A stretch of DNA of 64,000 nt. Origin: a virus (Duplodnaviria > Caudoviricetes). A program made the position numbers and the translations under genes. Shown piece after piece: positions 9,163-26,492 of this stretch. Position 1 is the first letter of the stretch, and each line of letters opens with the position of its first letter. The notes below the pieces were generated by a model. The model saw nothing but the letters and a program-made list of their open reading frames with translations, was not told the origin of the DNA and made no database searches. The stretch spans positions 64,001-128,000 of IMG/VR virus record IMGVR_UViG_3300001528_000580; one strand, written 5' to 3'.

Positions 9163-9181
9163 AATTTCTACTTATGTAGAT
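9163..9181 (+). CRISPR. solitary Cas12a-type repeat handle AATTTCTACTTATGTAGAT
   Basis: Matches the 19-nt type V-A crRNA handle AATTTCTACT-NNN-GTAGAT. Confidence 0.8.
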
Positions 9182-9322: not shown

Positions 9323-9341
9323 AATTTCTACTCGTGTAGAT
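9323..9341 (+). CRISPR. solitary Cas12a-type repeat handle AATTTCTACTCGTGTAGAT
   Basis: Type V-A handle, loop variant. Confidence 0.8.
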
Positions 9342-9419: not shown

Positions 9420-9495
9420 GCGTTCTTAACTCAGTCGGTAGAGTATCACCCTTTTAAGGTGAGAGTCATGGGTTCGAGTCCCATAGAACGTACCA
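9420..9495 (+). tRNA. tRNA-Lys(TTT)
   Basis: Full cloverleaf, CTTTTAA loop, encoded CCA. Confidence 0.95.
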
Positions 9496-22531: not shown

Positions 22532-22778
22532 AACTTATGAGCGGTAGGCTTAGAAGTAGCCATCCGATAATGAGTGAAAGGAACCACCAATTAGTGCAAA
22601 ATGTCAAGAAATATCTAATGGTTCAATTATAAACGACTTAGAATCGATAAACTTGATTCAAGGTATATGTTGATGATGTGCATTTGGTAAAATGGGAATA
22701 AGCATGGTTAATGACCATCACCCAGATTAGATAATACTATGGGGTCGCTTTCTTTGGTGTAATAACACATCATAAGTT
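22532..22778 (+). ncRNA. 23S rRNA H43/H44 (GAC, uL11-site) mimic RNA, copy 1
   Basis: GGTAGGCTTAGAAGTAGCCATCC...GAGT-[insert]-GTGTAATAACACA, closed by aacttatga/tcataagtt. Confidence 0.8.
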
Positions 22779-22800: not shown

Positions 22801-22819
22801 AATTTCTACTTATGTAGAT
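22801..22819 (+). CRISPR. solitary Cas12a-type repeat handle
   Basis: AATTTCTACTTATGTAGAT. Confidence 0.8.
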
Positions 22820-24393: not shown

Positions 24394-24491
24394 AAAAATT
24401 CAATTTTTTTATTTTGGGAGCTTGAAAAAAACAATATTTGGTGTATATTAAGTATTGTAACAGGGAAACCTGATGCTATTTGAAAAATTAT

Positions 24492-24569
24492 AGAGGTGCT
24501 TGGAAAAACTTTCAACGAGTAGACTTTTAATCTAAATACGTGCAAACAGGTTTTTTCGCTTATTCCTCT
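24492..24569 (+). ncRNA. scaffold RNA displaying a tRNA-Lys(UUU)-like anticodon arm
   Basis: agagg/cctct scaffold shared with 26105-26244; taga-CTTTTAA-tcta. Confidence 0.6.
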
Positions 24570-24657
24570 TTTTTTCAAATATTTTTAAAAATAATACTTG
24601 AAAAAATCAATATTAGGTGTATATTAAGTATTGTAATAGGGAGACATGATATTTGAA

Positions 24658-24725
24658 AATTTCTACTTATGTAGATAAACAAGGAAAACTTGAGGTTGAT
24701 TAAAAAAATTTCTACTTATGTAGAT
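24658..24725 (+). CRISPR. Cas12a-type mini-array: handle, 30 nt, handle
   Basis: AATTTCTACTTATGTAGAT at 24658-24676 and 24707-24725, just after a promoter. Confidence 0.8.
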
Positions 24726-24988
24726 AAACATTAGAAACAAATGGTGAAAAGCCGTCAGGAATCTACCCATCACGCACCATGATTAGTGATGTGGTTTACT
24801 GAAAACGAGGTACGAAAGAACAGAGTCTTTTTGAGTATATCTCATAAGCTATAGCGTACAACGAGGCGATGCTAGTGAAATGCAATAAAAGTAGCGGTCA
24901 TGGTACAACCTGCATAGGATGTGGAGTAGACTGAAATATATCAGCTACGTATCAAGAAATTGATTAAACATGTAATTTCTAATGTTTT
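24726..24988 (+). ncRNA. about 260-nt multibranched structured RNA
   Basis: aaacattagaaa/tttctaatgttt closing stem; tcag-tctac/gtaga-ctga and accatga/tcatggt inner stems; no ORF. Confidence 0.6.
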
Positions 24989-25330
24989 TTGCTCTTATGA
25001 GCTGATGGACTTGTACTCAATTGCAACTTAACATTATTCATAATGTTGATGTAAAAGGTCTGACGTACAGTACCTAAAATAAAGTAATGACCTGCCTAGA
25101 TTGAAGCACTAGAAACTTATGCTTCACAGCTTTATGTCGATATTGAGCTGTTTATCCGTAGGATAAAAAATAATCGGTAATCCAAGATGTAATTCTTAGC
25201 ATTGCAAGCATACTAAGTGAGGATTTAAAACATTAATAACTTGATGCTGATAGGTAAGCTATCACTTTTTCAAGATTTTTTTATATTTATCATATATGTG
25301 TAAAATATAAATAATGTTGATTGAAAATTT

Positions 25331-25622
25331 TGTCAAAAGTTGAAATGTTGGATTAGAGGCATCCATCATCTAAGGAGTAACCCACGACATTGAACATTGC
25401 AACTGTAATCACTGATACTTAAAAAGGAAACACTTACAATAAACCAGTGAGCCATAATTAACTGAATAATGACAAAAACTGTTAGGTTGGTATAAGTGAT
25501 AACTTTAAAAGAATGTGATATGCTTACATGTCCTAATTCAGTAGGAAGGTTCGATGGCTAACGAGGAGCATGAGATTACATGCTGAAAGGTTTTTGGCAT
25601 AAAAGCACATCAAGTTTTGACA
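25331..25622 (+). ncRNA. 23S rRNA H43/H44 mimic RNA, copy 2
   Basis: ATGTTGGATTAGAGGCATCCATCATCTAAGGAGT-[insert]-GCATAAAAGCACA, closed by tgtcaaaagttga/tcaagttttgaca. Confidence 0.8.
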
Positions 25623-25649
25623 TTTTTATTCATACAATATAATTGTATA

Positions 25650-25761
25650 GCTATCATGCTAGCTAACTCGTGATACATCAGTGGTTAAAAGGAGCTGTAT
25701 ATCACTGAAAGAGTTTGAACTTACAGCTTGAAAAACTTGATCATGATTGTGGTGCGATAGT
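25650..25761 (+). ncRNA. pseudoknotted ncRNA
   Basis: cagtggt/atcactg interleaved with agctgta/tacagct. Confidence 0.45.
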
Positions 25762-26104
25762 TTTTCTTCTTGACCCACACATGGAGTTGGTTAGCTACCA
25801 ATACTCCATGATTTTTATGAAAAAAGTTCAGAAATGAGCTTGAAAATAAAAAAATCAATGCTATATTATAGTATTGAAAGAAAAAAATAGACGATAGCAT
25901 GGAGACGTTTTTCTTGAAATAAAGAAAAATTTAGACAATGCAACTAACTTGAAAATTTGATGGTTCAATCAAGTTACGGAGCTATTCTGAAAGAGATAGC
26001 AATTATTATCAGAAATCATTTAGCTTATGGATGTGAAAGCTATGAACTTATGTTCTAAAGTATGTCAAAGAGATATATAATCATTTTTGCTGATTGAAAA
26101 TTAT

Positions 26105-26244
26105 AGAGGTGGCATAAAAACGTTCAACGCTGATAACGTCGAGGCTGTAGGTTCGAGTCCTATTATTATAGATAGATAATATCAAACTATAATATAGCTC
26201 AATTGGGTAGAGCACGTAAAAAATGTTTTTATAGTAATTCCTCT
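26105..26244 (+). ncRNA. circularly permuted tRNA-Ile(GAT)-like RNA (YrlA-like topology) in shared scaffold
   Basis: Order is anticodon loop, T-arm, acceptor hairpin, D-arm; all arms pair. Confidence 0.75.
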
Positions 26245-26258
26245 TTTTATAAATTCAT

Positions 26259-26347
26259 GTCTGGGTATGCGAATTGGCATAGCAAATTGACTTAAAATCA
26301 ATTGTATTCCGAAAGGTATGAGGGTTCGAGTCCCTCCCCAGATACCA
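26259..26347 (+). tRNA. tRNA-Leu(TAA)
   Basis: Cloverleaf with long variable arm, CTTAAAA loop, CCA. Confidence 0.93.
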
Positions 26348-26492
26348 TTTTTACCCAAGAGATTAAATAAAAAATAATCTCTTGGGTTTTTTTATGTATT
26401 TTTCTTAAATTAACGGTTCGAGTCCAGTTTTAATATTTTTTTATATTTTCTTTTATATGAAAAATTTTAATATGAAAGGAAGATATTAAAAA

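What the first reader, a model, noticed from the sequence alone, without database searches (positions are those of the whole stretch)
24492..24569. Same scaffold displaying only a tRNA-Lys(UUU) anticodon arm: a modular anticodon-decoy family
Seen: 24492-24569 and 26105-26244 share the frame boxA-ATAGAGGTG..AAAAAC.TTCAACG-[cargo]-CGT..AAA..GTTTT..ATTCCTCT-U-run. The cargo here is TAGA-CTTTTAA-TCTA, the same loop as the real tRNA-Lys at 9420; in the other copy it is the permuted tRNA-Ile. Established: tRNA-Lys(UUU) is the target of the anticodon nucleases PrrC and PARIS AriB. Inference: a reusable scaffold presenting anticodon loops as decoys or inhibitors of anticodon nucleases or synthetases.
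Basis: partly seen in the sequence, partly recalled or inferred. Interest (0 to 1): 0.72.

Follow-up and report, generated by a model that had tools for sequence, protein, structure and literature searches.

The report
Phage Y RNA with lysine-anticodon loop
This 78-base stretch encodes a small 'Y RNA', one of five in a giant gut phage that share a handle probably gripped by the phage's own Ro60 ring protein; this one carries only a hairpin copying the anticodon loop of lysine tRNA, which hints at, but does not show, a role against tRNA-cutting host defences.

Summary
Window 24492-24569 and 26105-26244 share a two-helix frame, and a covariance model finds exactly five members in the 440-kb phage genome. 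The other three lie in tandem at genome position 204 kb.

The same frame sits directly beside Ro60 (Rsr) genes in at least five other phage or prophage lineages, in arrays of 2 to 10 units. This phage also encodes a Ro60 ortholog (genome 340302-341837) and an RtcB ligase. The "scaffold" is therefore most likely the Ro60-binding handle of Y RNAs, the YrlA/YrlB kind known from bacteria, mycobacteriophages and Thermus phage phiLo. It is a diverged form that scores below the Rfam YrlA threshold.

The larger members carry complete, circularly permuted tRNAs. The element in question is a minimal member carrying only an anticodon-arm-like hairpin. Its CUUUUAA loop is invariant in strain relatives. 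It also survives in a paralog whose stem changed by three compensatory pairs, so the loop sequence is under constraint. Minimal members of distant lineages do not keep anticodon-like loops.

A decoy role against anticodon nucleases remains possible but untested. This scan has reported similar phage Ro60-like proteins with handle-bearing RNA arrays on other DNA, with a different handle.

The parts
24422..24449 (+). Promoter-like site (TTGAAA, 16 nt, TATATT) in front of the RNA. The same promoter type recurs at 24598 and 25840.
   Evidence: 10 of 12 matches. It is conserved in strain relative L188. No transcript data.
24456..24491 (+). Predicted 5' leader: a small hairpin (about 24461-24476) followed by the A-rich 'boxA' UUUGAAAAAUUAU, which can pair with the 3' U-rich tail.
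   Evidence: third fold, z = -2.8. A similar leader precedes the units at genome 204 kb and in L188. Its role is inferred.
24492..24569 (+). Minimal Y RNA (YrlB-like), 78 nt. Parts: outer stem 24492-24496/24565-24569; internal loop UG.. / ..AUU; inner stem 24501-24511/24548-24558; conserved UUCAACG 24511-24517; ACG/CGU closure 24515-24517/24539-24541.
   Evidence: 68.3 bits, E 1.7e-11 with model R2.
24520..24534 (+). Cargo hairpin: 4-bp stem UAGA/UCUA with the 7-nt loop CUUUUAA (24524-24530), identical to the tRNA-Lys(UUU) anticodon loop.
   Evidence: The loop is invariant in the orthologs L186-L193. It is also kept in a paralog in which 3 of 4 stem pairs are compensated.
24570..24576 (+). U run directly after the outer stem. 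Probably the 3' end or terminator of the RNA.
   Evidence: A U run is kept in all strain orthologs. The simple terminator scan did not call it.
26105..26244 (+). Sister Y RNA (YrlA-like). Same handle; the cargo is a circularly permuted tRNA in the order anticodon arm with loop CUGAUAA, T arm, acceptor stem closed by a 17-nt loop, D arm. The break lies between tRNA positions 26 and 27.
   Evidence: Rfam YrlA 30.6 bits, E 8e-4, below the gathering score of 69; 60.7 bits with R2; re-ordered halves called tRNA-Ile GAU.
9420..9495 (+). True phage tRNA-Lys(UUU), whose anticodon loop the cargo hairpin copies. It is the reference for comparison and not part of the RNA.

Best explanation
Window 24492-24569 is a gene for a small Y RNA of the YrlB type. 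It is transcribed from its own promoter and ends at the U run.

Its 5' and 3' ends form a conserved two-helix handle: a 5-bp outer stem, an asymmetric internal loop U(G/A) / A(U/G)U, an inner stem of 7-11 bp, and then UUCAAC(G). I infer that this handle is the binding site for the phage's own Ro60 (Rsr) ring protein, encoded at genome 340302-341837.

The part beyond the handle is the effector module. In four sister RNAs of this genome it is tRNA-like: circularly permuted (T arm, closed acceptor stem, D arm) in two, one of which ARAGORN calls as a complete tRNA when re-ordered, and in normal arm order in the other two. Here it is cut down to an anticodon-arm-like hairpin with the tRNA-Lys(UUU) loop.

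By analogy with studied Y RNAs, the handle holds Ro60 and the module brings in a second protein. For this RNA, that protein most likely recognises either the lysine anticodon loop or a U-rich loop.

Shown here: the family, its structure, its linkage to Ro60 genes, and the constraint on the loop. Inferred: binding to Ro60, the partner of the loop, and any role in RNA repair or counter-defence.
For: 1. Family and structure. Five members in the genome. 30 curated units from seven loci keep both helices with entirely different sequences. Covariation is strong.

2. Linkage to Ro60. A pattern scan found contig L105, in which a 532-aa Ro60 ortholog (Pfam vWA_Ro60 6e-10, TROVE 23.6 bits) is followed within 20 nt by two units. 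Model R2 finds units within 2 kb of Ro60, on the same strand, in L173, L177, L179, L180 (10 units) and L181. It finds none elsewhere in those loci. Weaker hits lie beside Ro60 in five of 21 loci from gut bacterial genome bins.

3. The phage has the protein. A 514-aa ORF is 42% identical to the L105 Ro60 (E 2e-124). It matches solved human, Xenopus and Deinococcus Ro60 over about 410 residues at E 1e-8. The DxSxS metal-site motif of the vWA domain is invariant in the alignment. The phage also carries RtcB (208.7 bits). RtcB or RlaP follows Ro60 in L173 and L181.

4. Kinship with YrlA. Four units give full-length Rfam YrlA alignments at 30.6-37.5 bits. One keeps the GACGAAG Ro motif in the inner stem.

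5. Fit to published Y RNA sets. [quoted passage not shown]

6. The loop is constrained. It is unchanged in 5 distinct orthologs while the adjacent linker varies. It is also unchanged in a paralog with 3 of 4 stem pairs compensated.
Against: - This RNA is 252 kb from the phage Ro60 gene, so the adjacency criterion used to define YrlA is not met for it. The link rests on homology of the handle.
- The published Ro60 motif GNCGAAN0-1G is absent from all five copies, which have G/U-AAAAA-C/G at that place.
- No unit reaches the Rfam YrlA gathering score.
- There is no transcript, binding or processing datum.
- One Ro60 locus (L185) and the loci of the closest Ro60 relatives (L168-L172) have no unit nearby, so the linkage is frequent but not universal.
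- The cargo stem has only 4 A-U-rich pairs.
Confidence: 0.8

Rival explanations
1. Anticodon decoy, the first reader's reading, with or without Ro60. The hairpin mimics the anticodon stem-loop of tRNA-Lys(UUU). It titrates or inhibits a lysine-specific anticodon nuclease of the host (PrrC, RloC or PARIS AriB type), or another anticodon reader such as LysRS or a modification enzyme. The sister RNAs do the same for other anticodons.
For: - The loop is identical to both phage tRNA-Lys loops and is conserved through compensatory stem changes.
- Four of the five copies in this genome have loops of the form CU-NNN-AA.
- Strain orthologs of the sister RNA differ in the anticodon triplet (GAU, GGU, UGU).
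- The phage carries two tRNA-Lys genes and RtcB.
- AriB cleaves tRNA-Lys (PMC11455837).
- The same islands hold CRISPR-repeat-like RNAs, so RNA mimicry may be a theme in this phage.
Against: - The stem is 4 bp plus an internal loop, not the 5-bp anticodon stem.
- Minimal members in distant lineages carry unrelated cargo: a 14-nt loop, hairpins with 4- to 9-nt loops, and no U33-type pattern.
- An orthologous tRNA-order unit changes its loop from CUCACAA to AUGCCAA between related phages, which fits weak constraint.
- CUUUUAA is low-complexity sequence in a genome of 25% G+C.
- No host, and no nuclease, is known.
Confidence: 0.2
2. A Y RNA whose U-rich loop is simply a single-strand binding site for a general RNA-binding partner, such as the KH/S1 domains of host PNPase, as in the Ro60-Y RNA-PNPase machine. 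On this reading the likeness to the lysine anticodon loop is a coincidence.
For: - Small pyrimidine-rich loops are a published feature of the second Y RNA in Deinococcus, Salmonella and M. smegmatis (PMC4201824).
- Thermus phage phiLo Ro60 with its Y-like RNAs binds host PNPase (PMC12135203).
- Minimal members elsewhere have varied, often A/U-rich cargo.
Against: All seven loop bases and the 3' flank AAUACGU are kept while the stem turns over. That is stricter than 'pyrimidine-rich' requires. In the sister RNAs the same position of the handle carries a true anticodon arm.
Confidence: 0.3
3. Decaying remnant: a deletion derivative of a YrlA-like gene that lost its T, acceptor and D arms and no longer functions.
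For: It looks like the sister RNA with most of the tRNA removed. A degenerate copy fused to a CRISPR-like repeat exists in strain relatives.
Against: - It has its own promoter and U run.
- The handle is intact and gives the best model score in the genome.
- The hairpin is invariant in strains while the linker drifts, and the paralog shows compensatory changes.
- Minimal units make up about a third of the family and sit right in front of Ro60 in four lineages.
Confidence: 0.05
4. A DNA-level signal and not an RNA. The conserved UUCAACG and AUUAUAGAGG read on the minus strand as a sigma-70-type promoter (TTGAAA, 17 nt, TATAAT).
For: One search lists minus-strand sites at 24515-24487 (11 of 12 matches) and 26127-26100 (10 of 12).
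Against: The -10 part is absent from the three units at 204 kb and from the G+C-rich relatives, which still keep UUCAAC and both helices with compensatory changes. No minus-strand gene follows.
Confidence: 0.02

Closest known systems
YrlA and YrlB, the bacterial and mycobacteriophage Y RNAs bound by Rsr/Ro60 (Rfam RF02553; Chen et al. 2014, PMC4201824)
   Same: - A stem formed by the 5' and 3' ends.
- Several Y RNAs per genome.
- One type carries T arm, closed acceptor stem and D arm. [quoted passage not shown]
- Encoded beside Ro60, and often RtcB, in relatives.
- Sub-threshold but full-length YrlA model hits.
   Different: - An extra outer stem with a conserved U(G/A)/A(U/G)U loop.
- UUCAAC(G) is conserved, and the GNCGAAN0-1G motif is lost in this phage.
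- The permuted tRNAs keep an anticodon arm, so re-ordering gives a full tRNA.
- In this phage the RNA genes lie 136-252 kb from Ro60.
- All units score below the Rfam gathering score.
Thermus phage phiLo Ro60 with Yrl1 and Yrl2 (PMC12135203)
   Same: A phage-encoded Ro60 with phage-encoded Y-like RNAs. The proposed use is to engage host factors such as PNPase.
   Different: The phiLo RNAs lie directly upstream of the gene, were picked by their CGAA motif and stem-bulge-stem shape, and are not described as tRNA-like in the passages I read. Here there are five RNAs with tRNA-derived modules and a different conserved motif.
Deinococcus radiodurans Yrn1/Yrn2 and the Ro60-Y RNA-PNPase (RYPER) machine
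   Same: Modular logic: the handle binds Ro60 and the other end binds an effector. In Yrn1 the stem-loop between the D and T arms stands in the place of the anticodon arm. Units B and C at 204 kb have the same arm order.
   Different: No sequence similarity was tested or seen. The effector here is unknown.
Phage tRNA-based escape from anticodon nucleases (T5 tRNA-Lys against PARIS AriB; PMC11455837)
   Same: A phage RNA bearing a lysine anticodon loop, in a phage that also carries spare tRNA-Lys genes.
   Different: Those are working tRNAs that replace the cleaved host tRNA. This RNA has no acceptor, D or T arm and cannot be charged. Any protective action would have to come from binding, and that has not been shown.
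Handle-bearing RNA arrays beside Ro60-like DUF2828 proteins, reported by this scan on other DNA (unchecked AI notes)
   Same: Arrays of small RNAs that share one handle and carry varied, partly tRNA-like cargo, next to a Ro60-shaped protein in large phages.
   Different: That handle is a 7-bp stem plus ACAGCAA and its protein is DUF2828. Here the handle is GRNGU(G/A)...UUCAAC(G) and the protein is a true Ro60 (vWA_Ro60, matching solved Ro60 structures by sequence).

Membership tests
Y RNA (Ro60/Rsr-bound ncRNA, YrlA/YrlB type) | About 80-130 nt, with a long stem formed by the 5' and 3' ends that holds the Ro60 site, plus a loop or module at the other end | tested here: met
   78 nt. Two-helix stem with covariation. 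Definition quoted from PMC4201824.
Y RNA (Ro60/Rsr-bound ncRNA, YrlA/YrlB type) | Encoded near a Ro60 ortholog (within about 2 kb), same strand | tested here: inconclusive
   Not met for this copy: Ro60 is in the same genome but 252 kb away. Met for homologous units in L105, L173, L177, L179, L180 and L181.
Y RNA (Ro60/Rsr-bound ncRNA, YrlA/YrlB type) | GNCGAAN0-1G motif in the 5' strand of the stem | tested here: not met
   All five copies of this phage have G/U-AAAAA-C/G at that place. The motif (GACGAAG) is present in units L173u2 and L177u2 of the same family.
Y RNA (Ro60/Rsr-bound ncRNA, YrlA/YrlB type) | Reaches the Rfam RF02553 gathering score (69 bits) | tested here: not met
   No hit for 24492-24569. 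The sister RNA scores 30.6 bits, and the Ro60-adjacent units 30.8-37.5 bits.
Y RNA (Ro60/Rsr-bound ncRNA, YrlA/YrlB type) | [quoted passage not shown] | tested here: met
   26105-26244 and unit A at 204 kb carry T arm, closed acceptor stem and D arm. 24492-24569 is the hairpin type, with loop CUUUUAA.
Y RNA (Ro60/Rsr-bound ncRNA, YrlA/YrlB type) | Physically bound by Ro60 and dependent on it for stability | not testable with these tools
   Needs co-purification or gel-shift assays.
tRNA | Cloverleaf with acceptor, D, anticodon and T arms | tested here: not met
   ARAGORN and the Rfam tRNA model give no call at 24492-24569. Only an anticodon-arm-like hairpin is present.
Anticodon stem-loop mimic of tRNA-Lys(UUU) | 7-nt loop identical to the tRNA-Lys loop and kept in relatives | tested here: met
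   Identical to both phage tRNA-Lys loops. Invariant in orthologs and in a stem-compensated paralog. Not kept in minimal members of distant lineages.
Anticodon stem-loop mimic of tRNA-Lys(UUU) | 5-bp anticodon stem closing the loop | tested here: not met
   4 bp, then a 2x4 internal loop, then the 3-bp ACG/CGU closure.
Anticodon stem-loop mimic of tRNA-Lys(UUU) | Binds, or is cut by, a lysine-specific anticodon nuclease or another anticodon reader | not testable with these tools
   The host and its defence genes are unknown. A biochemical test is needed.

The most novel reading that the evidence does not exclude
The phage uses Ro60 as a common chassis. A panel of Y RNAs present tRNA parts as bait. 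This RNA offers the lysine anticodon stem-loop so that a lysine-specific anticodon nuclease (PrrC, RloC or AriB type) is captured on the Ro60 particle and neutralised, or handed to a nuclease or to the RtcB repair pathway. The anticodon on the bait is swapped between strains (GAU, GGU, UGU in the sister RNA) as the host's nucleases change. That would make Y RNAs programmable anti-defence decoys.
Probability: 0.15. Interest if true: 0.85.

Novelty: new variant of a known kind. Interest (0 to 1): 0.5.

Why it matters
What bacterial and phage Y RNAs do is still largely open. Only tethering of Ro60 to PNPase has been shown.

This family gives a clean, modular series on one handle: whole permuted tRNAs, tRNAs in normal order, and a bare anticodon arm. 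It comes with a matching phage Ro60 and RtcB. That makes it possible to test directly what the tRNA-like part of a Y RNA is for. One can swap or mutate the module and ask which protein it recruits, and whether it protects against tRNA-cleaving defences.

The finding also exposes an annotation gap. This Ro60 clade has about 1,000 relatives in gut metagenomes. The Pfam TROVE model missed the phage's own copy, and its RNAs fall below the Rfam YrlA threshold.

Tried and rejected
- blastn of the 2.2-kb island against GenBank phages: no match.
- Pfam TROVE search of the phage's own genome: no hit. This was a false negative, overturned by a protein search.
- Pattern scan of IMG/VR for the 5' half of the handle: 27 hits, all chance.
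- The search for related loci with the two genes flanking the 204-kb array and with the DNA polymerase: no relatives.
- The closest GenBank phage by terminase is only 32% identical and was not pursued.
- MAFFT alignments of whole units (A2, A4) misalign the 3' strand. I did not use them for pair counts. I used an anchored cofold table and Infernal alignments.
- A relaxed descriptor search of the genome was too noisy in DNA of 25% G+C. It was replaced by the covariance model.
- Loci of more distant HNH homologs carry no unit, so I could not test conservation of the lysine loop beyond close strains.
- Recently described bacterial tRNA mimics (skipping-rope, DUF2693-FD, salivarius-1): no Rfam hit for them in the region.
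- The minus-strand promoter reading was rejected (see rival explanations).
- Complex prediction and structure prediction were not used. The open question is RNA-protein binding, which those tools do not address.

Full report
**Setting.** The window is bases 64001-128000 of a complete virus record of 440,868 bp with direct terminal repeats and 25% G+C. Window 24400-26490 has no convincing ORF. It holds several promoter-like sites of one type (TTGAAA, 16 nt, TATATT) and a tRNA-Leu gene.

**The observation.**
- The element at 24492-24569 folds into a 5-bp outer stem, an internal loop, an 11-bp inner stem, a 3-bp ACG/CGU closure and a 4-bp hairpin with the loop CUUUUAA.
- That loop equals the anticodon loop of both phage tRNA-Lys(UUU) genes.
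- The sister element at 26105-26244 carries, in this order, an anticodon arm, a T arm, an acceptor stem closed by a loop, and a D arm.
- When its two halves are re-ordered in silico, ARAGORN calls tRNA-Ile(GAU). The "permuted tRNA" is therefore real, with the break between tRNA positions 26 and 27.

**More members in the genome.** A motif search found three further members in tandem at genome 204075-204452, followed by a true tRNA.
- In one of them the outer stem reads GAUG/CAUC where the others read GAGG/CCUC, a compensatory change.
- Two carry a D arm, an anticodon arm (loops CUGAUAA and CUGCAAA) and a T arm in the normal order.
- A covariance model later confirmed exactly five members in the genome.

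**Finding the partner.**
- Rfam gave a full-length but sub-threshold match of the sister RNA to YrlA, the bacterial Y RNA (30.6 bits against a gathering score of 69).
- A Pfam TROVE search of the genome was negative.
- A pattern scan of metagenome contigs then gave one true homolog, L105. There a 532-aa ORF with the Ro60 vWA and TROVE domains is followed within 20 nt by two units of the same RNA family.
- Using that protein as the query, the phage genome turned out to encode an ortholog at 340302-341837: 42% identity, E 2e-124.
- The ortholog matches solved human, Xenopus and Deinococcus Ro60 over about 410 residues at E 1e-8.
- It scores just under the Pfam cut-offs, which explains the first miss.
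- The phage also encodes RtcB.

**Linkage across lineages.** The phage Ro60 has about 1,000 relatives, mostly from gut metagenomes. I fetched loci for several of them, plus IMG/VR loci found with an alignment.

| Locus | Units | Position relative to Ro60 |
|---|---|---|
| L173 | 4 | directly upstream; RtcB follows Ro60 |
| L177 (and L178) | 4 | directly upstream |
| L181 | 4 | directly upstream; an RlaP gene follows Ro60 |
| L179 | 2 | directly upstream |
| L180 (a 314-kb phage) | 10 | directly downstream |

Sources.

- Model R1, built only from this element, its four strain orthologs, a paralog and a degenerate copy in strain relatives, finds these units at E down to 2.6e-5.
- The second-round model R2 finds 18 of them, and none elsewhere in those loci.
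- Five of 21 Ro60 loci from gut bacterial genome bins also have units.
- Loci of the Ro60 genes closest to this phage's have none nearby. This fits the dispersed layout seen in this genome.

**Structure of the handle.** In 30 curated units the two helices are always formed, although their sequences differ completely. On 17 distinct sequences aligned by Infernal:
- 95.4% of cells pair, against 44-59% for slid partners;
- all 4 outer-stem pairs and 9 of 11 inner-stem pairs change on both sides;
- no shuffle out of 500 reaches the observed values.

This alignment was fitted to the model, which favours pairing. The slid controls and the independent cofold table nevertheless agree.

The conserved unpaired parts are U(G/A) after the outer stem, A(U/G)U before its 3' strand, and UUCAAC(G). 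In the permuted-tRNA members, CAACG is the 5' strand of the anticodon stem.

The published Ro60 motif GNCGAAN0-1G lies in the inner stem of some members (GACGAAG in L173u2 and L177u2). In this A+T-rich phage it is replaced by an A run.

**The cargo of this element.** Eight contigs from strain relatives were reached through the neighbouring HNH gene.
- The ortholog keeps the hairpin and loop unchanged, while the 3' linker differs in three versions.
- A paralog present in some strains has the stem AAAC/GUUU where this element has UAGA/UCUA. That is three compensatory pairs out of four, with the same loop and the same 3' flank.
- The loop sequence is therefore selected, not only the hairpin.
- In contrast, minimal members in distant lineages carry unrelated cargo.
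- An orthologous tRNA-order unit changes its loop freely between related phages.
- The sister RNA's anticodon triplet reads GAU, GGU or UGU in different strains.

**Interpretation.** The layout matches published Y RNA sets. There are several RNAs per Ro60. One has a tRNA-like module. [quoted passage not shown] Phage Ro60 with its own Y-like RNAs is known from mycobacteriophages and from Thermus phage phiLo. TROVE proteins have also been noted in some jumbo phages as part of RNA repair (PMC7824862).

I conclude, with confidence 0.8, that this element is a minimal Y RNA whose handle binds the phage Ro60. What the lysine-type loop recruits is open. It could be a reader of the lysine anticodon, including an anticodon nuclease, as was proposed for YrlA by Hughes et al. 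(PMC7790460). It could instead be a general binder of U-rich loops such as PNPase. The decoy reading is plausible in a phage that also carries spare tRNA-Lys genes, RtcB and CRISPR-repeat-like RNAs, but nothing here tests it.

**Novelty.** The kind is known: phage Ro60 with Y RNAs. Four things differ:
- the handle (an extra outer stem, UUCAACG, and loss of the CGAA motif);
- the complete permuted tRNAs that keep an anticodon arm;
- the member that carries an anticodon arm only, with a constrained lysine loop;
- the dispersal of the RNA genes far from Ro60.

Earlier notes of this scan describe similar handle-and-cargo arrays beside Ro60-like DUF2828 proteins on other DNA, with another handle. 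A first-reader note had flagged the three tandem units of this genome. I confirmed those units myself.

Noticed in passing
window 9163-9181, 9323-9341, 22801-22819, 24658-24676, 24707-24725; L188:4721-4860: Five copies of a 19-mer with the form of a Cas12a (type V-A) crRNA repeat handle: 5 matches where 0 are expected by chance. In strain relatives a handle, a 30-nt spacer and a partial handle run straight into a degenerate unit of the Y RNA family.
   Followed up: partly
L173:9901-9968, L177:2869-2935, L179:2869-2929, L181:3895-3961: In four lineages the last unit of the array is a minimal Y RNA that ends 15-66 nt before the Ro60 start codon (or the first aligned residue). It could double as an autoregulatory leader of the Ro60 mRNA.
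   Followed up: no
window 26129-26135; L187:4975-5111; L186:6221-6342: The anticodon-like triplet of the permuted-tRNA Y RNA differs between strains. Re-ordered, the units are called Ile GAU, Thr GGU and Thr UGU. UGU also occurs in the first unit of the arrays in L173 and L177.
   Followed up: partly
L168, L169, L170: The gene for a Ro60 62% identical to this phage's translates to the recorded protein only with TAG read as glutamine. A related phage lineage therefore seems to use a recoded stop codon.
   Followed up: no
genome 340302-341837 (outside the window; L167:1489-3033, minus strand): The phage Ro60 ortholog scores below the Pfam cut-offs (vWA_Ro60 27.2 against 27.7; TROVE 19.4 against 23) and was missed by a TROVE search of the genome. 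About 1,000 relatives exist in gut metagenomes, nearly all unnamed.
   Followed up: yes
L173:11574-12728; L181:5744-6706; genome 161977-163044: RtcB directly follows Ro60 in L173, and an RlaP-family gene follows it in L181. In this phage RtcB lies 178 kb from Ro60.
   Followed up: no
window 24730-25830 and 22532-22778: Long stretches with no ORF of 60 aa or more and no Rfam match. An earlier first-reader note reads two of them as mimics of the 23S rRNA GTPase-associated centre. I did not check this.
   Followed up: no
L216:3044-4426: A distant HNH homolog's contig (a 125-kb gut phage-like contig) encodes a DUF2828+DUF7788 protein, the other Ro60-like class reported by this scan. It has no unit of the present RNA family.
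   Followed up: no
window 26400-26425: A lone T-arm-like fragment (GGTTCGAGTCC) after the tRNA-Leu terminator. It may be a remnant of another tRNA or Y RNA unit.
   Followed up: no
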